From NCBI GenBank assembly GCA_004193545.1, contig RPGO01000029.1, positions 20,096-84,095 on the forward strand: 64,000 bases of DNA. Direction: 5' to 3'. A model generated the notes under the pieces. It did no database searches. It saw nothing but the letters and a program-made list of their open reading frames with translations, and was not told where the DNA came from. This document shows, piece by piece, positions 36,673-55,939 of the stretch (positions are counted from its first letter, which is position 1; every line of letters starts with the position of its first letter). This DNA is from Candidatus Argoarchaeum ethanivorans. Its GTDB lineage: Archaea > Halobacteriota > Methanosarcinia > Methanosarcinales > EX4572-44. A program made the position numbers and the translations under genes.

Positions 36673-37536
36673 GAAACTTCGGTTCTTGGACAGAACTAAG
36701 AAGGTGTAAGATGAAGATGAATGAATATCAGATACAAAAGAAGTCAATCGTCGGGCAGAAAAAGCTAAAGTGGACATTTTGAAACTTTTCAGAGGTGGAA
36801 AATCCAGAGAAAAGAGCCAGAGGGATTTTAGAAATGCACTGGAATGGCACACTCCAGTTCCCAGTCTATGAAGCTATTAGATGGGGTGAAATTAACAAAA
36901 GAAGTGATGAAATATGCGAAAAGATGGTCAAAAGACCGGATAATTCACTGAAGTGGGATGTTACCATCGAGTCTCGCATTCTGGTAGGTTATCTATTGTG
37001 GGGTAGCTATATTTGCATTTGGTTACCACTATTAAACTATTGGTGGTATTTTAAAAACGTTAGCTACTAAACATAAGAAATTAAAAATGGAAAATAGATA
37101 TCTATTTTCCATGTGCACTTATTCAACTGCCACAGCCACCATGATCATTACGATCGATTTTTGGGTATTCATTCTGTTACTCATATATTTCACACCTTAT
37201 ATTACGCTACACATCACTTTATGATATTTTATGCTATTGCGCGTAATTATTAACGCGCTGTGTTTGAGTTGCCTTTATAATTGTGAACTGCCTGTTTTCA
37301 TGCACAAACATGAAAACAGGCATTGTTCCATGTTGGCTATAATAAGCCACAATTCAGATGTTTTTTTATTCGATTGTATACATGCAGTATTTTTCTCATA
37401 TCACTGCTTTTTTATTTTTACATCTATTTATTCAAAGTTACTTCCAAATTGTTAACGAAAATTGTTAACAAATTTCTTTATGTTCTGATTAAATAAAAGA
37501 GGTTAAGAACGAAAGGTTAGTACTTATGATTCGAAT

Positions 37537-38000
37537 CTATGGTACATAATTATGGCATGGATACGCTGTTGGAAAAATTGCTCTGGCGTCCTGAATGCAA
37601 TAGAAGTTGCAATTCATAGGGTGTCTGATGGACTCCTCACCTGCTGGTGCTAAATCGAAGAGCGCTTGAGTTGAACATCCATTTCGTGTTTCGTGGGACG
37701 GAGATCTTCCTAAGAATATACGGAGTTTTTCTGCTGTTTTTATCAGTAAACTGTACTCTATATCCATTATAGATGCTATACCATCTTTAAATACAGAAGC
37801 ATATCAATATTTTGGATTTACTACCAAATCTAAAGGAATTATAAACTTTTTATTGCACTTTTTACACAGATACCTTCTTAGATATATTTTCTGTGGTCCG
37901 AACTCACCTAATAATACTTCTGTTTTATTACATGATTCGATCCACAGGACTGGCAAATCGGTCTTACAAGCTCGAAATGGTTTCTTGGAATGAATACAAG
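37537..38000 (-). pseudogene. Possible degraded transposase (zinc-ribbon N-terminus plus a following fragment)
   Basis: Own translation of 37830-38000 gives ...FGPQKIYLRRYLCKKCNKKFIIP, which resembles the zinc ribbon of the IS transposase at 6661. It is followed by the 76-aa ORF at 37537-37767. There are stops between the pieces. Confidence 0.3.
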
Positions 38001-38228
38001 TCTTTTATTTGTGTTGTGGGGTTGTATTCTTCCAGGTATCCATCTCTGCTATGATTTTACCGGGTTCCGGATCACCTTTTGAAAAATCGGAAAATTTGAG
38101 TTGTATATGGCAGATAAACTCTTCGAGGACAGATAACTCACCATACTTATGTTTTTTAGTCTATTTCTGAATATAGAGTTGAAATGTAAGTTTGTTTTTG
38201 ATTACGCAGTAATCAAGTGCGTTAGCAA

Positions 38229-38924
38229 TCAAGATTCGCCACGATCAAGGGTCAGGATTGTTTTTGGGTTTGCAGCTTCCCCAATAATAATGATTGCACC
38301 ATGCTTGATTTTAGCGGTTTTTACCTTCCCTACTATATCTGAAATAATTCCTCTTATTATTTTCTGGTCAAGCCAGAAAGCATGGTATACCACAGCAACA
38401 TCTGTATCAGGCGGGTATGCCACCCGGTCTATTATCTCCTGTATCTTTTCAACCCCGAGAAATATGACCATGGTAGCCAGATGCTTGGATAGTTCTTCAA
38501 TTGGCTCCTCTGGTCGTGTTACTATCACGGTTTGAGTAACACCTGGAAGTGTCAACTGTGTTTTTAGAAGTGCTGCTGATGCAAACATGGCTGAAATACC
38601 TGGCACCACTTCGACCTTAATACCTCTTTTTTCAAGTGCATGGATTTGTTCGAGCATCCCACCAAAAAGAGATGGATCTCCACTGTGGATGCGTACTACT
38701 GTTTTTTTCTGTTTAACATAAGTTTCTATCGTATCTGTGATTTCATCAAGTGTTTTTCCATAGCTGCTTATAATATCTGCTGCTGCAAGTTCGATGATTT
38801 CAGGAGCAGTTGCATCACCATAATGTATTACAAGGTCTGCTGTTTTAATAAGTCGTTCCGCTTTTATACTGAGCAGTTCCAATGTCCCAGGACCTGCGCC
38901 TACAAAATAAACCTGTGTTATGAT
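38229..38924 (-). CDS. Tetrapyrrole (corrin/porphyrin) methyltransferase, most like cobalt-precorrin-4 C11-methyltransferase CbiF
   Basis: The conserved N-terminus VYFVGAGPGTLELLS lies upstream of the track start (TTG at 38882). The only in-frame candidate starts are ATC at 38924 or ATA at 38921, behind AGAGGTG. VRIHSGDPSLFGGMLEQ and VVPGISAMFA motifs are present. Confidence 0.7.
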   Translation of the reverse strand: MITQVYFVGAGPGTLELLSIKAERLIKTADLVIHYGDATAPEIIELAAADIISSYGKTLDEITDTIETYVKQKKTVVRIHSGDPSLFGGMLEQIHALEKRGIKVEVVPGISAMFASAALLKTQLTLPGVTQTVIVTRPEEPIEELSKHLATMVIFLGVEKIQEIIDRVAYPPDTDVAVVYHAFWLDQKIIRGIISDIVGKVKTAKIKHGAIIIIGEAANPKTILTLDRGES

Positions 38925-38989: not shown

Positions 38990-39730
38990 TTATCCATACA
39001 TTGGAAATTCTTTTCGTGGTGGTGGCACGCCCTCTGTATTCCTTACCTGGTCTGCCAGTTTTTGCATTTCCACCTCTATTTCTTTTGCCTGTTCAACAAG
39101 ATCTTGTATATCTATGTTCAGATTATATATTTTATTCAGTGCCTCTATTACTGCTATGGCTGCTCTTGGTTCTGGGTTTTGGCTGTTTGTCTCTCCAAGC
39201 AAGCTTATAGCAGGCATTTCTTGCAGGTGACATGCAATCATCATGCTGCCTGCTATACCTGAAATAGTCCCAACCTGAAATATCTCAACGGCATCCTTTA
39301 TTTTTTCGAGCATTTGACTGGTGGTCGCCGAGCCAAACACCTTGTGTTCCCCGCTCATCGTAGCTATACCTGCTATTGGCACGATTTCCTTTACGTTTAT
39401 TGTTTTAGCCCAGTCCACAATTTCTTTGCTGATATCATAAGCGACTGCTGGATGTATGGGAATATCTGAAATGATAATTAAGATATTGTGTTCAGTTGAT
39501 TCGTATATGCGTACTGGCATATTGATTATGCCATTTGATAAAACTGCTATTGGTGGGAAGTATCTTGAGTTGATCATGCCTTTTTGTACCATTTTGAGTT
39601 TATCTATCATGTACTGGCAGGCAATGTTTCCTATCAACCCGGTACCTGGGAATCCATTGAATAATATTGGATTCGTTGATTCAATTGGTTCAGAAATTAT
39701 CTGGTAGTTGTCATCCTTTTTGCTGTTCAT
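38990..39730 (-). CDS. PAC2-family (proteasome assembly chaperone-like) protein
   Basis: FNGFPGTGLIGNIACQYMIDKL is typical. I placed the start at MNSKKDD (ATG 39730-39728) because the longer track ORF would run into the hairpin repeats. Confidence 0.7.
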   Translation of the reverse strand: MNSKKDDNYQIISEPIESTNPILFNGFPGTGLIGNIACQYMIDKLKMVQKGMINSRYFPPIAVLSNGIINMPVRIYESTEHNILIIISDIPIHPAVAYDISKEIVDWAKTINVKEIVPIAGIATMSGEHKVFGSATTSQMLEKIKDAVEIFQVGTISGIAGSMMIACHLQEMPAISLLGETNSQNPEPRAAIAVIEALNKIYNLNIDIQDLVEQAKEIEVEMQKLADQVRNTEGVPPPRKEFPMYG

Positions 39731-39740
39731 GTCTGTCCCC

Positions 39741-39825
39741 CTGCACACAATGTGTACAGAAATTACCAGCACTGCAAAGCTGCGCTTTGCAGAAAAACTC
39801 TCGACTGCACAACTTCGTTGTGCAG
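39741..39825. repeat. Cluster of three palindromic hairpin repeats
   Basis: 39741-39759 ctgcacaca-a-tgtgtacag (one mismatch); 39772-39792 ctgcaaagc-tgc-gctttgcag; 39805-39825 ctgcacaac-ttc-gttgtgcag. They are separated by aaattaccagca-type linkers. Confidence 0.8.
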
Positions 39826-39850
39826 AACTATAATACCGGTAACCTTTAAC

Positions 39851-39995
39851 AATTCATTATTTACAGAATACGTGTTTTACGTTTCTTCTATGATAAATAT
39901 GTTTACAATCTTGATTACTACATAATCAGGATTCGTTATTTACACAGTAAGTATTTTACATTTCTTCTATGATAAATATGTTTACAATCTTGATT
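39851..39995 (+). repeat. Left boundary of the island: two tandem copies (L1 39851-39916, L2 39930-39995) of the sequence found at the asd 3' end
   Basis: L2 positions 39930-39977 are identical over 48 bp to 44980-45027. Flanking similarity extends to 39912 and 44962. L1 is a more diverged copy. Confidence 0.85.
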
Positions 39996-40006
39996 TAATT
40001 ATTATA

Positions 40007-40045
40007 CCCCGCTGCAGAGCAGCGGGGTGTGCCGTCGCAATTTGA
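40007..40045. repeat. Family D repeat (hairpin ccccgctgc-agag-cagcgggg plus the tail tgtgccgtcgcaatttgac)
   Basis: A near-identical unit lies at 55841-55881. The leader ttaattattatacccc is shared with 55729-55744. Confidence 0.75.
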
Positions 40046-40349
40046 CTGCAAACAATTGGAGTTTGTGCATCGTTCAAAATTATTGAAATAAGATAACATT
40101 CGTGGCACTAAAAATGGGCACAGATAAAACTACTAAGATGAGAATACAAATATGATTAATAAGAAATTAAATAAAAGCATATGGTTATTATACATAGAAC
40201 TTGGAATAATGATTGTACATCATAGTCAAATGTGTTGGATGACAGTATAAGCAAATGGAAGTAATCAATAAACTAAATTCAGTTAGAGATATGAAATAAG
40301 TATCTGAAGTAGATACATTTTTGAAGTATAAAATTATATAAAAAAATAT

Positions 40350-40991
40350 ATGACGAAAATATCGATATATTTGTCTGGAAGCATAAAAAAAGGGAAAGAC
40401 GACACAAAGAGGTCATTTTGGACTTATGATGATATGAAGTATATTATCAATAATATTCACGGATATGAAGTTAATATACTAAATCCAGCCACTGAGAACA
40501 TTAAGAGAAGTAATCCATTAGAAAATTTCGGAGCAGATTTATACCTTGTGAAAATGAGTGATTTTTTATTCACAGATTTAAGAGAAAAACGAGGAATTGG
40601 AGTTGGATCAGAAATGACTATGGCAAAATATTATAAAATCCCAGTAATTTCTATCTGTCCAAAAGAGAGTAATTACAGGCGATCTAAGCTCGAAAATGTA
40701 TGTGGTGAAGATTTGTATGACTGGATACATCCATTCGTTTTAGGTTTATCTGATAAAATAGTAGAGAATCTAAAGGAAGCTATCGAATGGGTAAATGAGT
40801 TCGTAAAACGCTCTACATACATTAAAGATTTAGATAAAAAACCTCATCCAGTTGATGAATTTCAGAAAATATCGAATAATTGGGAAAAAAATGACATTAA
40901 AGACTTCGGAATTATCGATGAGGCAATCCGTCTTTTTATTGAAAATCAATTAGATAATAGTGCTGAATTGGATGATGCTAATGGAAATTAA
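40350..40991 (+). CDS. Nucleoside 2-deoxyribosyltransferase-like (NDT/Rcl/MilB-type N-glycosidase fold) protein
   Basis: 213 aa. The N-terminal KISIYLSGSIKKG and the segment DLREKRGIGVGSEMTMAKYYKIPVISI fit the NDT-superfamily pattern (G..E.G.A...P). Assignment is by motif only. Confidence 0.55.
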   Translation: MTKISIYLSGSIKKGKDDTKRSFWTYDDMKYIINNIHGYEVNILNPATENIKRSNPLENFGADLYLVKMSDFLFTDLREKRGIGVGSEMTMAKYYKIPVISICPKESNYRRSKLENVCGEDLYDWIHPFVLGLSDKIVENLKEAIEWVNEFVKRSTYIKDLDKKPHPVDEFQKISNNWEKNDIKDFGIIDEAIRLFIENQLDNSAELDDANGN

Positions 40992-41604
40992 AGGCCGAAC
41001 TATATCGGAGGTGTGGGAGAAGAGTATACAACAGATTATCAAAGATGATTCTCCATTAATACCCACCCAACACGCTACAATGGCAAAAGAATTACAGAAT
41101 ATGATAATGATTGTTGATGAACCTTTTGGAGAACCGAGAGTTTCAAATAAATATTCGTTTCCCGAAAAATTTCAAAATGAATACTCCGAGTTTCTATTGG
41201 AACCATATGCTAAATCGGATATATTGCACTCACGAATATGTGAATATGGCGAAAGTAAATTGAATCAAATCGAGCAATGTATAAAAATACTTCAGGAAGA
41301 TTGGTATTCTCGAAGAGCCGTTATAACTTTATGGAACCCCAATGATGATTTATATTCATCTTTTCCACCATGTATCTGCTCATTTCAAATTATGATTAGA
41401 AAAAATAAAGTAGATTTGGTAGTAGTAATGCGAAGTAATGATGCATGGTTATCTGCACACCCAGATATGATTGCTCTTACAAACTTACAAAAGAAGATAT
41501 CAAAATTGATCGGATTAGAATGTGGGAGATATGTTCATCATGCAGTAAGCTACCACATATATGAATATGATTATCCAATGGCACTAAAGGTGTTTTTTGT
41601 ATGA
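40981..41604 (+). CDS. Thymidylate-synthase-family enzyme, short archaeal form; candidate pyrimidine-nucleotide C5-methylase or hydroxymethylase
   Basis: SRRAVITLWNPNDD, PPCICSFQIM (catalytic Cys), MRSNDAWLSAHPDM and HHAVSYHIYEYD. The start is probably MEIKGRT at 40981; the track ORF starts at 40960. Confidence 0.8.
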   Translation: MEIKGRTISEVWEKSIQQIIKDDSPLIPTQHATMAKELQNMIMIVDEPFGEPRVSNKYSFPEKFQNEYSEFLLEPYAKSDILHSRICEYGESKLNQIEQCIKILQEDWYSRRAVITLWNPNDDLYSSFPPCICSFQIMIRKNKVDLVVVMRSNDAWLSAHPDMIALTNLQKKISKLIGLECGRYVHHAVSYHIYEYDYPMALKVFFV

Positions 41605-42614
41605 GTACTCATTCAATTTTATATAATGGTAATGTAGAAATTGACACTCAGATGCTCAATAGCATTATACAGTCTGTTGTCACTTTTACTGACGATATCT
41701 GGATCAACTCAAATATTACCCTATCTAAAAATATGCCAACCACCACTTGGGAAAATGCTCATGATATTATAAGCCTTTTAGAAGATAAACAAATCATTAA
41801 AAGATGGAGTTTTCCACATTCAGAAATAAATGAAAAGAGTTGTGAAACAGGTAATAAAAATAGCCCTATTATAATCGACACCACTGCTAAATCAAAACCC
41901 AGCAGAAAAATTGATGAAATACCTTTCGATAAATATGAAGAAATAAACAATCAAATAAACAAGATTTTTCTTACGAACAAAGATTTATTACCAACTACAT
42001 CCCTTACTTATCAACCAATTCGAGATGTAAAAAACGAGATAGAAACCACCTCAAAGGTAATCTCTATAAGGAAAGAATATTGGTCAGTTGCAATTGCAAG
42101 TCTTCTCGGAGCAAATAGTTTGTTAATTGCTTCAAAATATAAAAACATGTGGCTTACTGCCTCAGAAAAATTGAGATATCCTTTAGTGGAAAAAGAGGTT
42201 ATTCAGCATATACTAGAAAATTATTGTTCAGTTCCCGATATGACTATGCTCAAACCCGAGGACATTATAAAACTGCACAATAAAAATAAAAATTTTAAGG
42301 AAAAAATTTGTGGAATTTGTGAAAATATTTCATCAGAATTCCAATGTATGTATGACATAGAGCCCTTAGGTCAAGCAATGCAAGATGGTATTTGGGAATA
42401 TGTAGACGAAATAAGTGGCGTGAAAAAATCAGGCACTATAAAAAATGTGGCGTATGCCATTAGTAGTATTTTCATTCCAGAATTATCTGCATTGCCATTT
42501 GTAGACGGATATATCACATGGCTTTCTAAAAAAAGAAAACACGGATATGTTTTTTTTCTCTCAGAATTAAAGAAAATTAATCGTCAACCTGTTAATAAAA
42601 GTCGGGTGCTATGA
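41601..42614 (+). CDS. Hypothetical 337-aa protein, no recognisable domain; translationally coupled on both sides
   Basis: An uninterrupted ORF with ATGA overlaps at both ends (41601-41604 and 42611-42614). Its AT-rich codon usage matches the other island genes. Confidence 0.6.
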   Translation: MSTHSILYNGNVEIDTQMLNSIIQSVVTFTDDIWINSNITLSKNMPTTTWENAHDIISLLEDKQIIKRWSFPHSEINEKSCETGNKNSPIIIDTTAKSKPSRKIDEIPFDKYEEINNQINKIFLTNKDLLPTTSLTYQPIRDVKNEIETTSKVISIRKEYWSVAIASLLGANSLLIASKYKNMWLTASEKLRYPLVEKEVIQHILENYCSVPDMTMLKPEDIIKLHNKNKNFKEKICGICENISSEFQCMYDIEPLGQAMQDGIWEYVDEISGVKKSGTIKNVAYAISSIFIPELSALPFVDGYITWLSKKRKHGYVFFLSELKKINRQPVNKSRVL

Positions 42615-44029
42615 ACAAAATTGTAAAATCTGAATGTGAAGTCTTACTGATATATCCACCCTATTTTCGATTGCTTGGTGAATTTAGAGCATGGTATCCA
42701 TTAGGTGTTGGATATCTAGCCTCTTATTTGAATTCATTTGGTATACCAACAAAAGTTTATAATGCTGATACTGAACTGTTTAAAAATGAAAATATCATTT
42801 CTTATAAAGACAAGTTTTATAAGTCCGAAGCAGTACTACCAAATAAAAATGAACAATTTATTCTTCATGAGATGAAGAATGTTTTAAAGTCATTACAACC
42901 AAGAATAATCGGAATAAGCGTCTTAACAGAAAATATTCCTTTGATAAACGATATAATTCAAGTCTGTCACGATAGTCTTTCAAATGTGCCCATTATAATT
43001 GGTGGGGCACATACCCTAATTAGTCAGAATCTAACCAAAGAGATTTGTGATTGGGATTACATCCTGATTGGTGATGCTGAAGAAAGTCTTTTTGCATTAG
43101 TAAAATATCTATTAGGCTTAAATAGTTCGCCTTCATTAAAAGAAATTGATGGATTAATATACAAAGAAGATGAAAGAATAAGGAATAATGGAATATTGAA
43201 GATAAGCGATAATTTAGATTGTTTGCCTTTTCCTAATTTGAGAGATATGTATTCCTTTAATATTGATTTGAAAGAAAAGTTTAAAAAAGTAATGATCTCA
43301 ACAACGAGGGGCTGTCCTTTCAAATGTACTTTTTGCTATATGAATAAGTATTACAAAGAAATGAGATATCGTAGTCCAGAGAGTGTAATTAAAGAAATTG
43401 AATTTAATGCATTTTCATTTGATATAACTAAATTCTATTTTATTGATGATTCTTTTGGGACTAATAAAAGTTTTTTTTATGATTTGTGCAATTTAATAAA
43501 TAGCCTCTCTTTCGACATAAAATGGTCATGCATGACACACGAAAAATTGATATCGAGAGAACGTTTAGAAACCATGAAGAAGGCTGGTTGTGATTCGATT
43601 CACTTGGGTATTGAATCAGGTAGTGATCGAATACTCAAGTTGCTAGGAAAAAAAACTACAGTAAGTCAAATTGAAACGAAAGCCAGACTTATTAATGATG
43701 CTGGATTAAAATTAAAGGCATTTTTTATGGTGGGTATGCCTACCGAAACTGAAGAAGATATTAAAAAATCTATGGAACTTCTGAAAAAAATCGAGCCACA
43801 TGAGGCTATTTTGCAGATATATGTACCATATCCAAATACAAAACTCTATGACTACATAAATGAAAATATATGTAACATTGCGAGCTTCTACAATTGGAGT
43901 AATTTCTATAAAGCGAAAATCAACTATCAAATGATAGGTGAAATACATCAAAAAAGATTTGATACTTTATTAAAAAACTTCTTTAACTTAGTCGAGGAAA
44001 TAAATGAAGAAAATAAAGTATACGGCTAG
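42611..44029 (+). CDS. B12-binding-domain radical SAM enzyme (class B rSAM)
   Basis: 472 aa. The N-terminal Rossmann-like part (VLLIYPPY, GISVLTEN, IIIGGAHT) is followed by TTRGCPFKCTFCY (CX3CX2C). Confidence 0.8.
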   Translation: MNKIVKSECEVLLIYPPYFRLLGEFRAWYPLGVGYLASYLNSFGIPTKVYNADTELFKNENIISYKDKFYKSEAVLPNKNEQFILHEMKNVLKSLQPRIIGISVLTENIPLINDIIQVCHDSLSNVPIIIGGAHTLISQNLTKEICDWDYILIGDAEESLFALVKYLLGLNSSPSLKEIDGLIYKEDERIRNNGILKISDNLDCLPFPNLRDMYSFNIDLKEKFKKVMISTTRGCPFKCTFCYMNKYYKEMRYRSPESVIKEIEFNAFSFDITKFYFIDDSFGTNKSFFYDLCNLINSLSFDIKWSCMTHEKLISRERLETMKKAGCDSIHLGIESGSDRILKLLGKKTTVSQIETKARLINDAGLKLKAFFMVGMPTETEEDIKKSMELLKKIEPHEAILQIYVPYPNTKLYDYINENICNIASFYNWSNFYKAKINYQMIGEIHQKRFDTLLKNFFNLVEEINEENKVYG

Positions 44030-44241
44030 AAGCCCTTCATTCACAAATCCTGGCAATCCATTGATTGTCAAGTTTGATCTTACTCACCTATCAAAGTATA
44101 TGCTATTAACTCCATTCACGCGAATTGTTCTACAACTTAGCATACATATACCCTATCGGGCGAAGTTGGGTCGTGCCTAATAAAAATGCTAATTATGTTG
44201 TTTTTATACAATATTGATCCAATAAAAGGGAAGGTTTATGA

Positions 44242-44802
44242 ATGAATCTTTTCGCCATTGTAGGGCCAAGCGGTAGTGGCAAAACCTCTGTAGTAAATGC
44301 ACTTAAGTCCTATGGTATTAAAACCATGGAAGAAAATTATATCGGATCTTACCCTTCTCGGTTTAGTAATAGGGAACTATTGTCAAAATGGTCATGGATT
44401 GCTCGCTGGATAGAATTGGTTTGGGATTTTAAACTTACGGGAACTACGGTAATAGTAAGTGATAGATGTCCTTTAGAGGTGGTACCATATGCAACTGAAG
44501 GAATTCTTCTTCTTGAGTCTCTCAATAGTACTATAATGGAATTCCAAAACCATGATGTTTGGATTCGAACGATATACCTTCGTGTACCTCTTCAAATTTG
44601 TTTTGAGCGATCCCGAGAAAGACTTCATAGAGAACCATGCAGACAAATCTATGGAGAAGAGGATTTAGATTACGTTACATCAATTTATGCATTTTATGAA
44701 AAGAGTGTCGGAAATCTATGGGACTTCACTATTGAGGCTTCTGAAAGATCTATTGAGGAGATTGTGGACGAGATAAGGCGAATTATTGATCGCAATAGTT
44801 AA
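44242..44802 (+). CDS. Deoxynucleoside/deoxynucleotide kinase-like P-loop kinase (dNK fold)
   Basis: 186 aa. P-loop IVGPSGSGKTS, SDRCP (ERS-like) motif, and lid ERSRERLHRE within IYLRVPLQICFERSRERL. Confidence 0.6.
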   Translation: MNLFAIVGPSGSGKTSVVNALKSYGIKTMEENYIGSYPSRFSNRELLSKWSWIARWIELVWDFKLTGTTVIVSDRCPLEVVPYATEGILLLESLNSTIMEFQNHDVWIRTIYLRVPLQICFERSRERLHREPCRQIYGEEDLDYVTSIYAFYEKSVGNLWDFTIEASERSIEEIVDEIRRIIDRNS

Positions 44803-44961
44803 TGCTTATATCATTCGGGACAAGAGTAATGAAGGACGACTTTATAAATATTAGGTTTGTGCCTTTTAATTTCATTGTTAATTAGAGCAACGAAAGAACT
44901 TTAGCTAACCTCATGCACCCTCCCGATGCCCCGTACAGAGCGAAGCGAAGTCCAGGGTCTG

Positions 44962-45043
44962 TGACTACTACGTAGTCAAGATTCGTTATTTACACAGTAA
45001 GTATTTTACATTTCTTCTATGATAAATGCGTTCACAATATTCC
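44962..45043 (+). repeat. Right boundary repeat of the island; overlaps the last codons of asd
   Basis: It matches 39912-39995 (48 bp perfect core at 44980-45027). The restored asd stop codon sits at 45034-45032, inside the repeat. Confidence 0.85.
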
Positions 45044-46059
45044 CTTTTTGTGAAGCAGTTCTGCGTTCAGTATACTTGCTCCAGCTGCACCTCGAATGGT
45101 GTTATCCCTACGACAATATATCTAATTCCTTCACGAATGCGTCCGACACTTACACTCATACCTCCTCCAGCATTACGATCCATGCGCGGCTGTGGTCGAT
45201 CTTCCTCATCTCTGACGATGATTACTTTTTCAGGCTCTGTTGGAAGGTCATGCAGATCGGTATCAAATCTTAAAAACGCATCTTTAACCTCCTCTGGTGT
45301 TGGATCATCTGCCATTTGTACCCACAAAGCTTCAGTATGCCCATCCATAACCGCAACTCTATTGCAGCTCGCACTGACATTGATGTCTGCATTAACAACC
45401 TGTGAACCATCAAACTCCCCCAAAAGTTTTAATGTTTCAGTCTCCATTTTCTGCTCTTCTTTTGGAATATAAGGGATGAGGTTGTCAATAATCGCCATTG
45501 ACGGTACACCATCATAGCCTGCACCCGAAACTGCCTGCATGGTTGCTACTTGAATATTTTTCAGTCCGAATCCAGTAAGAGCACAGAGACTTGTTACCAT
45601 GGTGATCGTACTACAGTTAGGGTTAGTTATTATGCATCCATCCCATTTACGCATATCCCGCTGCACATCGATAAGCCCAAGATGTTCGGGATTAACTTCA
45701 GGGATTAGCAAAGGCACATCAGGAAACATTCGATAGGAACTTGCATTGCTTGCCACGATAAAACCAGCTTTTGCAAAATCGGCTTCAATGGTATATGCAA
45801 GATCTGCAGGAAGTGCTGAAAAAACAATATCTGCATCTACCTCTTTTACATCTACCGGCACAATCACCTGTTCTGCAACGCCTGCTGGAAGTTCTCTCTC
45901 AACGCGCCATTTTGCAGCATCCTTGTATTTTTTTCCAGCACTTCGCTCGGATGCTGCGAGTGTGGTTAGCTCAAACCACGGGTGGTCTGTTAACATTGAA
46001 ATGAACTGCTGACCTACATTACCAGTAGCTCCAAGAACACCAACACGAATTTTTTCCAT
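45032..46059 (-). CDS. asd: Aspartate-semialdehyde dehydrogenase with an apparent 1-nt deletion near the 3' end
   Basis: [17 protein letters not shown] and the active-site region NPNCSTI. After the CCC run at 45106-45108 the track frame reads [12 protein letters not shown]. The other frame reads the conserved [24 protein letters not shown] and ends at 45032. Confidence 0.85.
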
Positions 46060-55687: not shown

Positions 55688-55939
55688 CTGTACAAATTCG
55701 TTGTGCAGAAATACCGGTAGCCTTTGATTTAATTATTATACCCCGCAGCTCTGCTGCGGTTGGGACAAAGAGGAGTATAGTCAGATGGAACTTTTAGATT
55801 TTTGAATAAGACTGGATAACAAAGCGACGGTATGGAACATGCCCCGCTGCTCTGCGGCGGGGTGTGCCGTCGCAATTTGACTCTTGATTGCGAAGCAATC
55901 AAGTGCAGAAAATTAATTCTTGATTGCGAAGCAATCAAG
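55688..55939. repeat. Composite repeat cluster: a class A hairpin, family D units split by an insert of about 95 bp, and two class C hairpins
   Basis: 55688-55708 ctgtacaaattcgttgtgcag; 55729-55759 and 55841-55881 family D; 55883-55903 and 55919-55939 cttgattgc-gaa-gcaatcaag. Confidence 0.8.

What the first reader, a model, noticed from the sequence alone, without database searches (positions are those of the whole stretch)
39851..45043. AT-rich island of about 5 kb bounded by direct repeats that duplicate the 3' end of asd; no integrase present
- The sequence at the asd 3' end (44962-45043, including the restored stop codon) recurs twice in tandem at 39851-39916 and 39912-39995. One copy shares a perfect 48-bp core with it.
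- The intervening DNA is visibly more AT-rich than the flanks (no GC value was computed) and holds only the five-gene cassette.
- This is the footprint of site-specific integration at a gene 3' end (attL/attR). The two tandem left copies suggest two successive events.
- No integrase, replication gene or structural gene remains, so the island looks immobilised or domesticated.
Basis: seen in the sequence. Interest (0 to 1): 0.7.

Follow-up and report, generated by a model that had tools for sequence, protein, structure and literature searches.

The report
Strain-specific AT-rich gene island beside asd
One strain of the ethane-oxidising archaeon Candidatus Argoarchaeum carries a 5-kb foreign, AT-rich insert between asd and a PAC2 gene; its five uncharacterised nucleotide-modifying genes sit beside restriction and defence genes in other microbes, but the repeats around it are the host's own spacer units, not clear integrase sites.

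Summary
Three copies of a ~79-nt unit exist (39833-39912, 39912-39991, 44962-45041), two sharing a perfect 48-bp core. The DNA between them has 32.4% GC against 42.2% elsewhere. Four island-free versions of this locus confirm a strain-specific insertion: two related genomes, one 91%-identical metagenome relative, and the dominant population in the sample that also holds the island.

- Island-free genomes already carry two tandem units, so the extra left copy does not record a second integration.
- Only ~10 nt of asd lies in the repeat.
- The left flanking copy ends in an arm identical to the neighbouring host unit.
- The same island in other metagenomes lacks the unit.
- The insert sits 3' of a TTGAT, starts with a 53-bp IS200/IS605-type mini-element, and ends at a precise terminus (...TGTGAC) of a hairpin element that is multi-copy in cold-seep metagenomes.

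I favour an end-defined insertion mobilised in trans over integrase attL/attR, without certainty.

The cargo is a DNPH1/MilB-fold N-glycosidase, a cytosine-type thymidylate-synthase-like enzyme, an orphan protein, a B12 radical-SAM enzyme and an NMP kinase. In six of seven other contexts restriction or defence genes lie within 10 kb.

The parts
38990..39772 (-). PAC2-family (proteasome assembly chaperone-like) gene, the conserved left flank
   Evidence: Pfam PF09754 E=1.9e-52. Adjacent to asd in island-free L002 and L014.
39833..39912 (.). Unit A of the native intergenic tandem repeat
   Evidence: Present in the same position in island-free L014 and L002.
39912..39991 (.). Unit B-left. It combines a B-type left arm and core with an A-type right arm, and it starts with the hairpin TTGATTAC-TAC-ATAATCA.
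   Evidence: Its last 19-20 nt are identical to the right arm of unit A.
39930..39977 (.). Perfect 48-bp core, left copy
   Evidence: 0 mismatches; none of 100 shuffles gave a match.
39995..40047 (+). 53-bp IS200/IS605-type mini-element inserted 3' of TTGAT. It has a left-end start (TTAATTATTATACCC), a 10-bp-stem hairpin (40006-40028) and a right-end tail (GTCGCAATTTGACT).
   Evidence: The same ends bound a 154-bp element at 55729-55882. The same left end precedes a Y1_Tnp fragment in L014. Fold z=-4.0. Multi-copy in X2.
40048..40349 (+). Non-coding left part of the cargo. With the GAT at 39992-39994 it forms a hairpin GATGCAAAC..GTTTGTGCATC that the mini-element interrupts.
   Evidence: Sequence. 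The X3 contig shares homology from ~40043 onward but has a different left flank.
40350..40991 (+). Gene 1 (213 aa): nucleoside 2-deoxyribosyltransferase / DNPH1 / MilB / BcmB-fold protein, a probable (d)NMP N-glycosidase
   Evidence: AlphaFold2 pLDDT 84.8. Foldseek top hits 7o62, DNPH1, MilB and BcmB. Profile against PDB gives Rcl at E=0.005. PF05014 is found in 10 of 49 homologues.
40960..41604 (+). Gene 2 (214 aa): thymidylate-synthase-fold pyrimidine C5 (hydroxy)methylase. It keeps the catalytic Cys and has Asp at the uracil-specifying Asn position.
   Evidence: PF00303 E=2e-19. TIGR03283 scores below its cutoff. PDB hits are thymidylate synthases and CMP 5-hydroxymethylase MilA. The Asp and Cys are kept in 7 homologues.
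41601..42614 (+). Gene 3 (337 aa): orphan protein, always next to the thymidylate-synthase-like gene
   Evidence: 9 relatives among 5.8e9 proteins. About 70 representative clusters among 1.84e9. No Pfam or PDB match. The structure model failed at pLDDT 39.
42611..44029 (+). Gene 4 (472 aa): B12-binding radical-SAM enzyme, of the class B methyltransferase-like kind
   Evidence: PF04055 E=1e-28 and PF02310 E=6e-10. All NCBIfam matches fall below their equivalog cutoffs.
44242..44802 (+). Gene 5 (186 aa): P-loop nucleoside-monophosphate kinase-like protein
   Evidence: AAA_28, Thymidylate_kin and dNK are weak hits. PHROG thymidylate kinase E=7e-8. Homologous kinases sit in related modules L092 and L093.
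44884..44965 (+). Right-terminal hairpin element ('R element'): a conserved block, then GATGC, a variable hairpin, then TCTGTGAC. It gives the island a precise right terminus.
   Evidence: Depth reaches ~580 in X5 and ~86 in X3 against 5-8 for the island. Many contigs end at 44966 with different flanks. L091 keeps the form GATGC-hairpin-TCCGTGAC and then diverges. It is unique in the window.
44962..45041 (.). Unit B-right, next to asd. Its hairpin TGACTAC-TAC-GTAGTCA takes its first bases from the island terminus.
44980..45027 (.). Perfect 48-bp core, right copy
45032..46059 (-). asd (aspartate-semialdehyde dehydrogenase), the conserved right flank. It has a 1-nt deletion near 45106.
   Evidence: PF01118 and PF02774. 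Alignment with L002, L014 and L088. X2 holds both alleles.

Best explanation
A ~4.9-5.0 kb horizontally acquired segment (39995/40048 to 44965) is inserted in the asd-PAC2 spacer of one strain of Candidatus Argoarchaeum (GoM-Arc1).

THE REPEATS. The spacer is natively a short array of ~79-nt units, each starting with a TTGATTAC-N3-GTAATCAA hairpin. The 'direct repeats' are these host units. The left one is a B/A hybrid of the kind that unequal or ectopic recombination produces. They are not element-borne att sites.

THE INSERT. It lies exactly 3' of the TTGAT that opens a unit. It begins with an IS200/IS605-type mini-element. It ends at a precise ...TGTGAC terminus belonging to a hairpin element that is multi-copy in cold-seep metagenomes.

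INFERRED MECHANISM. An end-defined insertion without target duplication, mobilised by a transposase supplied in trans (IS200/IS605-like single-strand 'peel and paste', or something close to it), into an array that had gained a third unit. The allele then moved between strains by homologous recombination in the flanks.

THE CARGO. A five-gene operon that, by inference, makes or processes a 5-substituted cytosine nucleotide.
- The thymidylate-synthase-like enzyme (hydroxy)methylates (d)CMP.
- The DNPH1/MilB-fold enzyme cleaves or exchanges the base.
- The B12 radical-SAM enzyme alkylates further.
- The kinase phosphorylates.
- The role of the orphan protein is unknown.
Its neighbours elsewhere suggest a role in virus-host conflict.

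SHOWN: the insertion polymorphism, the foreign composition, the host origin of the flanking units, the termini and the protein folds.
INFERRED: the transposition mechanism, the third unit, the chemistry and the defence role.
For: EMPTY SITES.
- L002 joins window 39944 to 45030, and L014 joins within the core.
- The 91%-identical relative L088/L089 also lacks the island.
- Runs X2 and X4 have flanks at depth 11-32, the island at only 2.5-3, and an empty-site contig at depth 11-20.
- Runs X16 and X22 have the two-unit empty joint 39953->45006.

COMPOSITION. GC 0.324 against 0.422.

HOST ORIGIN OF THE REPEATS.
- Units A and B are tandem in the island-free genomes.
- The right arm of B-left is identical to that of unit A.

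MOBILITY OF THE CARGO.
- The island at 93-97% identity occurs in X1, X3 and X5 without the window's flanks.
- L087 shares 80% nucleotide identity over 40317-44068 in another context.

TERMINI.
- The right end is precise: X1 homology stops at 44966/7, and L091 stops at ...GTGAC.
- The 44925-44966 segment is up to ~100-fold deeper than the island and has many different flanks.
- The mini-element ends recur at 55729-55882, and its left end recurs next to a Y1_Tnp fragment in L014. All three copies follow TGAT.
- The right end of the mini-element (..TTTGACT) and the island terminus (..TGTGACT) share TGACT.
- In X3 the left end of the cargo again abuts a ...GGTGACT-like end.

CARGO FUNCTION AND CONTEXT.
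Against: - No island-free array with three units was seen in five sampled populations. The model therefore needs an extra, unobserved duplication.
- The two flanking cores are 48/48 identical, while the 14 nt just right of the island differ at 3 positions from the left copy. Both features are also typical of att sites.
- The hairpin at the island's right end does not resemble the mini-element hairpin. IS200/IS605 ends normally match each other.
- The cargo in X3 lacks the mini-element.
- The left boundary differs between contexts: ~40043 in X3, 40097 in X5, 40341 in X1 and 40317 in L087.
- No transposase gene lies in the 64-kb window.
- The junctions are not independently confirmed, because the available run data are k=31 contigs that break at these repeats.
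- The defence role rests on neighbourhood only. PADLOC gives no system match.
Confidence: 0.45

Rival explanations
1. Classical site-specific integration. A circular element carrying an attP that resembles unit B recombined with the chromosomal unit B (attB) through a tyrosine or serine integrase. This produced attL (39912-39991) and attR (44962-45041). The integrase was later lost or acts in trans.
For: - One event explains the extra unit copy.
- The 48-bp core is identical while both arms diverge.
- The empty site holds a single B unit.
- A homologous cassette lies 0.9 kb from a 451-aa Phage_integrase gene in L081-L083.
Against: - No integrase is present in the island, and tblastn with the L081 integrase found none in the window.
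- The supposed element arm of attL is identical to the host's own unit A arm.
- The supposed element arm of attR is absent from the island in X1 and L091, where homology ends at ...GTGAC(TA).
- No direct repeats of 20 nt or more flank the cassette near the integrase in L081.
- The core is absent from IMG/VR. The island DNA gives no match in the phage or plasmid collections.
Confidence: 0.2
2. Recombination-only origin. The cargo first landed beside a unit in some Argoarchaeum-lineage genome. It reached this strain either by Campbell-type single crossover of a circle carrying cargo plus one host-derived unit, or by allelic replacement through homologous recombination in asd and PAC2. The flanking repeats are by-products of ectopic pairing between units A and B.
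For: - B-left is exactly the B left arm and core plus the A right arm. This is the product expected from a crossover in the shared TTTCTTCTATGATAAAT stretch.
- The left arm of B-left is L002-like, and that of B-right is L014-like.
- The flanking genes are mosaic. PAC2 is 99.6% identical to L014 but 94.6% to L002. asd is 98.4% identical to L002 and 97.5% to L014.
- The island is a minority allele in one population.
Against: - It does not explain the primary insertion, the precise multi-copy right terminus or the TTGAT position.
- 80 bp is a short substrate for homologous recombination.
- No donor strain with the intermediate structure has been seen.
Confidence: 0.2
3. The island is ancestral at this locus, and the relatives lost it by recombination between the flanking repeats.
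For: Deletion between 80-bp direct repeats would leave exactly the two-unit empty site seen in L014, X16 and X22.
Against: - It is absent from three lineages, including the 91% outgroup L088/L089.
- GC is 10 points below the genome.
- The same cassette occurs in unrelated contexts.
- The truncated B unit of L002 and the repeat-filled spacer of L088 are not simple deletion products.
Confidence: 0.05
4. Assembly artefact. The island belongs to another replicon or organism in the sample and was threaded into this locus through shared repeats.
For: - Both junctions lie in repeats (the mini-element and the units).
- No Logan contig bridges either junction.
- Island depth in X2 and X4 is only ~10-25% of the chromosome's.
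Against: - The junction sequences are unique. B-right has its own left arm, GACTACTACGTAGTCAA.
- The ≥99%-identical island occurs only in the sample where this archaeon is abundant (X2, X4).
- A 5-kb replicon without a replication gene is implausible.
Confidence: 0.05

Closest known systems
Integrase-type genomic islands at the 3' ends of tRNA or protein genes (Islander-type islands; SGI1 at trmE; dusA islands)
   Same: A discrete, compositionally foreign block next to the end of a housekeeping gene. It is flanked by direct repeats, and relatives have empty sites.
   Different: There is no integrase. The repeats are pre-existing host tandem units. The coding overlap with asd is ~10 nt and lies outside the identical core. 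The repeat does not travel with the island in other genomes.
IS200/IS605-family elements and their miniature derivatives (PATEs/MITEs). ISDra2 inserts 3' of TTGAT (from my own knowledge, not tested here).
   Same: Insertion 3' of TTGAT, with no target duplication needed and no terminal inverted repeats. Hairpins sit near the ends. The right terminus is precise and multi-copy. A bona fide mini-element of this family forms the left edge, and a Y1 transposase fragment follows the same left end in a sister genome.
   Different: The insert carries 5 kb of cargo and no tnpA or tnpB. The left and right hairpins differ. Only the right end is shown to be precise in several contexts.
Integrase-less defence or variable islands in hot spots between conserved core genes
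   Same: A strain-variable insert between conserved genes. A second variable spot lies 2 kb away. The cargo's relatives lie beside restriction-modification, TIR, AIPR/Z1 and Mrr genes.
   Different: The defence function is untested. No PADLOC system matches.
MilA/MilB (mildiomycin) and BcmA/BcmB/BcmC/BcmD (bacimethrin) pyrimidine pathways
   Same: A thymidylate-synthase-fold C5-hydroxymethylase of the cytosine-nucleotide type sits next to a deoxyribosyltransferase-fold N-glycosidase. A methylating enzyme and a kinase are also present.
   Different: The methylase here is a B12 radical-SAM enzyme, not an O-methyltransferase. The kinase is P-loop, not ThiD-like. There is an extra orphan protein. 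The setting is an archaeal host and defence-island neighbourhoods. Sequence identity is very low (11-17% in the fold matches).
Phage pyrimidine hypermodification clusters (dCMP or dUMP hydroxymethylase plus kinases and further tailoring enzymes)
   Same: A thymidylate-synthase-like hydroxymethylase, an NMP/DNA kinase-like P-loop protein and a radical-SAM enzyme lie in one operon.
   Different: The cassette is not found on any viral contig or phage genome searched. It contains an N-glycosidase-fold enzyme, which would destroy rather than build the nucleotide.

Membership tests
Integrase-mediated integrative element (attL/attR island) | Direct repeats flank the inserted DNA | tested here: met
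   39912-39991 and 44962-45041 are 90% identical, with a 48-bp perfect core.
Integrase-mediated integrative element (attL/attR island) | Related genomes have an empty site with one copy of the att sequence | tested here: met
   L014, X16 and X22 have one B unit (plus the older unit A). L002, X2 and X4 have a truncated B.
Integrase-mediated integrative element (attL/attR island) | A tyrosine or serine recombinase gene lies in the element | tested here: not met
   The island has five genes and none is a recombinase. tblastn of the L081 integrase against the window gave E>4.
Integrase-mediated integrative element (attL/attR island) | The element-side arms of attL and attR are element-derived and travel with the element | tested here: not met
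   The inner arm of B-left equals the host unit A arm. In X1 and L091 the island ends at ...GTGAC with no unit sequence beyond.
Integrase-mediated integrative element (attL/attR island) | A circular excised form or regenerated junction is detectable | not testable with these tools
   Only k=31 contigs of the runs are available, and they break at the repeats.
IS200/IS605-family non-autonomous element | Insertion 3' of a fixed short target, without target-site duplication | tested here: met
   All three copies of the left end follow TGAT: CTTGAT, TTTGAT and TATGAT. Removing 39995-44965 restores a normal unit boundary, CTTGAT|TACTAC.
IS200/IS605-family non-autonomous element | Subterminal hairpins at both ends, recognised by one transposase | tested here: inconclusive
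   The left hairpin at 40006-40028 is strong. The right end has only an imperfect hairpin of different sequence.
IS200/IS605-family non-autonomous element | A Y1 (HUH) transposase is associated with the same ends somewhere in the lineage | tested here: met
   In L014 the same left end is followed by a Y1_Tnp fragment (PF01797, E=2e-6). This is shown for the mini-element only, not for the right terminus of the island.
IS200/IS605-family non-autonomous element | Both termini are precise in independent insertions | tested here: inconclusive
   The right terminus is precise in the window, X1 and L091. The left boundary varies: ~40043, 40097, 40317 and 40341.
Known anti-phage defence systems (PADLOC) | Proteins match the models of a described system | tested here: not met
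   Only the radical-SAM protein hits a candidate model (PDC-M51A, E=4e-14). The kinase hits are confined to its P-loop region. Genes 1-3 have no hit.
MilA/MilB- or BcmA/BcmB-type hydroxymethylase and N-glycosidase pair | A thymidylate-synthase-fold enzyme with the catalytic Cys, and Asp in place of the uracil-specifying Asn | tested here: met
   PPC(I/V)C and PDMIA are conserved in 7 homologues. Asp aligns with the Asn of PFNIAS in thymidylate synthase. MilA is among the top PDB hits.
MilA/MilB- or BcmA/BcmB-type hydroxymethylase and N-glycosidase pair | An adjacent deoxyribosyltransferase-fold N-glycosidase | tested here: met
   The confident model (pLDDT 85) matches deoxyribosyltransferases, DNPH1, MilB and BcmB at probability 0.98-1.0. 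The catalytic residues were not checked.
MilA/MilB- or BcmA/BcmB-type hydroxymethylase and N-glycosidase pair | Enzymatic production of free 5-hydroxymethylcytosine | not testable with these tools
   This needs biochemistry.

The most novel reading that the evidence does not exclude
The island is a cargo-carrying, transposase-less derivative of an IS200/IS605-like single-strand transposon. It ferries a previously undescribed antiviral system based on cytosine-nucleotide modification between cold-seep archaea, including an ethane oxidiser. The system comprises the thymidylate-synthase-like enzyme, the DNPH1-fold glycosidase, the orphan protein, the B12 radical-SAM enzyme and the kinase.
Probability: 0.2. 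Interest if true: 0.8.

Novelty: new variant of a known kind. Interest (0 to 1): 0.55.

Why it matters
- It documents strain-level gene flux in an uncultured alkane-oxidising archaeon. It also shows that long direct repeats around an island need not be integrase footprints, because host tandem spacer units can mimic them.
- The cargo is a compact, rare operon. Its orphan protein has only ~70 representative clusters among 1.84 billion proteins. Restriction or defence genes lie within 10 kb in six of the seven other contexts examined. If it is an immune or antimetabolite system built on a 5-substituted cytosine nucleotide, it would add a new chemistry to prokaryotic conflict systems.
- If the termini are truly transposon ends, it would be an unusual example of a multi-gene cargo moved by an IS200/IS605-like mechanism.

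Tried and rejected
- tRNA or tmRNA target: only a distant tRNA-Leu in the window, and none in six related loci.
- Rfam on the island at E≤5: nothing meaningful.
- The unit or core in viruses: 0 hits in IMG/VR.
- The right-terminal element in IMG/VR: 0 hits.
- Orphan-protein relatives on viral contigs: none.
- Island DNA and the orphan protein against the phage and plasmid collections: no match.
- PADLOC: no system.
- PHROGs: only the thymidylate-synthase and kinase families matched.
- Structure of the orphan protein: the model failed at pLDDT 39, so no fold search was run. A profile of 47 relatives gave no Pfam or PDB match.
- Direct repeats around the integrase-linked homologous cassette in L081: none of 20 nt or more.
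- Outgroup synteny in Ca. Ethanoperedens (L001) and other Methanosarcinales: PAC2 is not next to asd, so this was uninformative.
- Integron attC-like reading of the right-terminal element: considered and dropped, because the boundaries do not fit G|TTRRRY.
- CRISPR-repeat reading: dropped, because the upstream flanks share sequence and so are not spacer-like.
- Literature search for a described system with this gene set: none found.

Full report
1. WHAT IS IN THE SEQUENCE

Repeats. The repeat finder returns one family of three ~80-nt copies.
- 39833-39912, here called unit A, is 75% identical to the reference.
- 39912-39991, here called B-left, is the reference.
- 44962-45041, here called B-right, is 90% identical.

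B-left and B-right share a perfect 48-bp core, at 39930-39977 and 44980-45027. None of 100 shuffles produced a match.

Composition. The DNA between the repeats has GC 0.324 against 0.422 for the rest of the window. It is the lowest 5-kb stretch of the 64 kb. Outside it, 5-kb windows have mean 0.423, sd 0.025 and minimum 0.386. The five genes have GC3 of 0.26-0.29.

Gene content. Five co-directional ORFs fill the segment. No tRNA or Rfam family is present.

Two corrections.
- The real asd stop is TGA at 45032-45034 on the minus strand. Only ~10-12 nt of coding sequence lies in the repeat, and it lies outside the identical core.
- asd here lacks one base near 45106 that L002, L014 and L088 all have. 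This shifts the frame 24 codons before the stop. Run X2 contains both alleles.

2. ORGANISM AND EMPTY SITES

The asd protein finds two genomes at 97-98% amino-acid identity. L002 is GoM-Arc1-GOS. L014 is Candidatus Argoarchaeum ethanivorans. At the DNA level they are ~96% identical to the window on both sides of the island, and both lack it.
- L002 joins window 39944 to 45030.
- L014 joins within the unit.

A 91%-identical relative from a metagenome (L088/L089) also lacks the island. In its place it has a 450-bp array of short hairpin repeats between one good unit and one degenerate unit.

Public runs add population data.
- In runs X2 and X4, which come from one sample, the flanks have depth 11-32. 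An empty-site contig has depth 11-20. The island, at ≥99% identity, has depth only 2.5-3.
- Runs X16 and X22 have the joint 39953->45006, which is the two-unit empty site.

The island is therefore a minority, strain-specific insertion. By outgroup parsimony, absence is the ancestral state.

3. WHAT THE REPEATS ARE

The island-free genomes already carry unit A and unit B in tandem next to asd.

Aligning all units shows three things.
- B-left consists of a B-type left arm and core followed by ATATGTTTACAATCTTGAT. That arm is identical to the right arm of the adjacent host unit A.
- B-right ends in the asd-proximal arm.
- The left arm of B-left carries the L002 allele, and that of B-right carries the L014 allele.

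B-left is thus host DNA, of the form expected from ectopic recombination between A and B. It is not a foreign attP arm.

Each unit begins with a hairpin, TTGATTAC-TAC-GTAATCAA. This belongs to a family of 21-nt hairpins scattered through the window's intergenic regions. The commonest forms are CTTGATTGC-N3-GCAATCAAG and CTGCACAAC-N3-GTTGTGCAG.

4. THE EDGES OF THE INSERT

Left edge. Immediately after ...ACAATCTTGAT comes a 53-bp sequence at 39995-40047. It has a 10-bp-stem hairpin with fold z=-4.
- Its first 15 nt and last 14 nt also bound a 154-bp element at 55729-55882.
- Its first 15 nt precede a Y1_Tnp (IS200-type) transposase fragment in L014.
- All three copies follow TGAT.

This is an IS200/IS605-type mini-element. 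From my own knowledge, ISDra2 of that family also targets TTGAT. If the mini-element is removed, GAT joins GCAAAC... and completes a hairpin, GATGCAAAC..GTTTGTGCATC.

Right edge. The island at 93-97% identity is present in runs X1, X3 and X5 without the window's flanks.
- In X1 the homology stops at 44966/7.
- In the X3 contig (L091) the sequence is conserved to 44920. It then has a different hairpin, then ..TCCGTGAC, then unrelated DNA.
- The segment 44925-44966 reaches depths of ~59 (X1), ~86 (X3) and ~580 (X5), against 5-10 for the island. Many contigs end at 44966 with different continuations.
- It occurs once in the window and in no Argoarchaeum locus held.

The island therefore ends at the precise terminus of a hairpin element (GATGC, a variable hairpin, then TCYGTGAC) that is high-copy in some other cold-seep organism. 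That organism is plausibly the donor lineage.

Two further points bear on the termini.
- The mini-element (..TTTGACT) and the island (..TGTGACT) share the terminal TGACT.
- In X3 the left end of the cargo, GCAAAC, is again preceded by a ...GGTGACT-like end.

The left limit of homology differs among contexts: ~40043 in X3, 40097 in X5, 40341 in X1 and 40317 in L087.

5. HOW IT PROBABLY GOT THERE

Removing 39995-44965 restores a normal unit boundary, CTTGAT|TACTAC.

Four points favour an end-defined, transposon-like insertion mobilised in trans over an integrase attL/attR event.
- The unit does not travel with the island.
- The inner arm of B-left is host sequence.
- No recombinase is present.
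- The TTGAT position and the precise multi-copy terminus are transposon-type marks.

Four points weigh against this model.
- It needs a three-unit array before insertion, and none was seen in five populations.
- The 48/48 core identity with diverged arms is also what att sites look like.
- The left and right hairpins do not match.
- B-right carries a base change that makes its hairpin pair perfectly with the island's terminal TGAC.

I put the models as follows.
- Transposon-like insertion: about 0.45.
- Classical integrase integration: about 0.2.
- Recombination-only spread, either Campbell-type through a host-derived unit or allelic replacement: about 0.2. The mosaic identities of PAC2 and asd support this model.
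- Ancestral presence followed by loss: about 0.05.
- Assembly artefact: about 0.05.

6. THE CARGO

Gene 1 (213 aa) has no Pfam hit of its own.
- A 49-sequence alignment gives a confident model with pLDDT 85.
- Its best structural matches are nucleoside 2'-deoxyribosyltransferases, human DNPH1 (an hmdUMP N-hydrolase), MilB and BcmB (hmCMP/CMP N-glycosidases).
- A profile search of PDB sequences finds Rcl/DNPH1 at E=0.005.

Gene 2 is thymidylate-synthase-fold (PF00303, E=2e-19).
- It scores below the cutoff of every thymidylate-synthase equivalog model.
- The CMP hydroxymethylase MilA is among its best PDB hits.
- It keeps the catalytic Cys.
- It has an invariant Asp where thymidylate synthase has the uracil-specifying Asn.
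- From established thymidylate synthase and dCMP-hydroxymethylase enzymology, that Asp indicates a cytosine nucleotide substrate.

Gene 3 (337 aa) is an orphan.
- It has 9 relatives among 5.8 billion proteins.
- It has ~70 representative clusters among 1.84 billion.
- It has no Pfam or PDB match, and the structure model failed.

Gene 4 is a B12-binding radical-SAM enzyme. Gene 5 is a P-loop NMP-kinase-like protein.

The core of genes 1, 2 and 3 recurs with either the radical-SAM enzyme or an aldo-keto-reductase plus NUDIX pair, and often with the kinase. L085 has only genes 2 and 3. Its neighbours in the seven other contexts are as follows.
- L087: an MmeI-type restriction-modification gene and a ThsB-TIR gene.
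- L085: type I restriction-modification, Dcm and HhH-GPD genes.
- L093: AIPR, Z1, DUF4420 and HATPase genes.
- L094: Dam methyltransferase, Mrr and SMC genes.
- L092: an HsdR-N fragment and DACNV.
- L081-L083: a tyrosine integrase and a 1907-aa helicase.
- L096: only a Glu-synthase-like gene. This contig is short.

No copy lies on a viral contig, phage or plasmid searched.

My working model is that the operon (hydroxy)methylates (d)CMP, cleaves or exchanges the modified base, and further alkylates and phosphorylates it. This would give a modified pyrimidine used in virus-host conflict, or as an antimetabolite in the manner of bacimethrin or mildiomycin precursors. The model is inferred from folds and neighbourhoods only.

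7. VERDICT

This is a real, strain-specific, horizontally acquired island. The attL/attR reading is only partly supported. The cargo is an uncharacterised nucleotide-modification operon and is worth an experiment.

Noticed in passing
window ~45106 (asd, minus strand): asd lacks one base (GTAGGG-ATAAC against GTAGGGCATAAC in L014 and L088, and GTAGGACATAAC in L002). This shifts the frame 24 codons before the stop. Run X2 contains contigs with and without the base, so it looks like a real allele rather than an assembly error.
   Followed up: partly
window 36727-38233: A second variable spot lies between proS and the TP_methylase (cobM-like) gene. The window has 1.5 kb of AT-rich DNA with long hairpins (37087-37112, 37289-37322) and short ORF fragments. 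L014 has 265 bp with an IS200 left end plus a truncated Y1 transposase. L002 has a 6.6-kb block of radical-SAM, PD40 and hydantoinase genes.
   Followed up: partly
window 55729-55882: A 154-bp IS200/IS605-type miniature element with hairpins at both ends. It is inserted after TTTGAT and followed by two CTTGATTGCGAAGCAATCAAG hairpins.
   Followed up: partly
window 6392, 6437, 38198, 39772, 39805, 50547, 50604, 50673, 54911, 55883, 55919, 62264: Families of 19-22-nt perfect hairpins populate intergenic regions, in a REP-like manner. The forms are CTTGATTGC-N3-GCAATCAAG, CTGCACAAC-N3-GTTGTGCAG and CTGCATAC-N3-GTATGCAG. The mini-element inserts into the TTGAT of the first family.
   Followed up: partly
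L088 105-560: In a 91%-identical relative the same asd-PAC2 spacer holds ~450 bp of tandem 16-nt repeats (GCTGGCGCACTTGATT) and hairpin repeats between two units. The site is therefore a recurrent hot spot.
   Followed up: no
window 44925-44966 in runs X1, X3, X5: The 42-nt terminal segment reaches depth ~580 in X5, against ~5 for the island. Relatives have the form GAGCATC..GATGC, a variable hairpin, then GTGAC. The organism that carries these copies is unknown.
   Followed up: partly
L081 1-7110 and 15237-20924: A homologous cassette (70% nucleotide identity) lies 0.9 kb from a 451-aa tyrosine integrase. A 1907-aa DEAD/YjiV-type helicase and a >7000-aa surface protein are nearby. No flanking direct repeat of 20 nt or more was found.
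   Followed up: partly
L097 6535-8615: More distant members of the gene-1 family (45% identity) sit with a NUDIX hydrolase and a dioxygenase-like gene and have no thymidylate-synthase-like partner. The glycosidase-fold family is therefore broader than this cassette.
   Followed up: no
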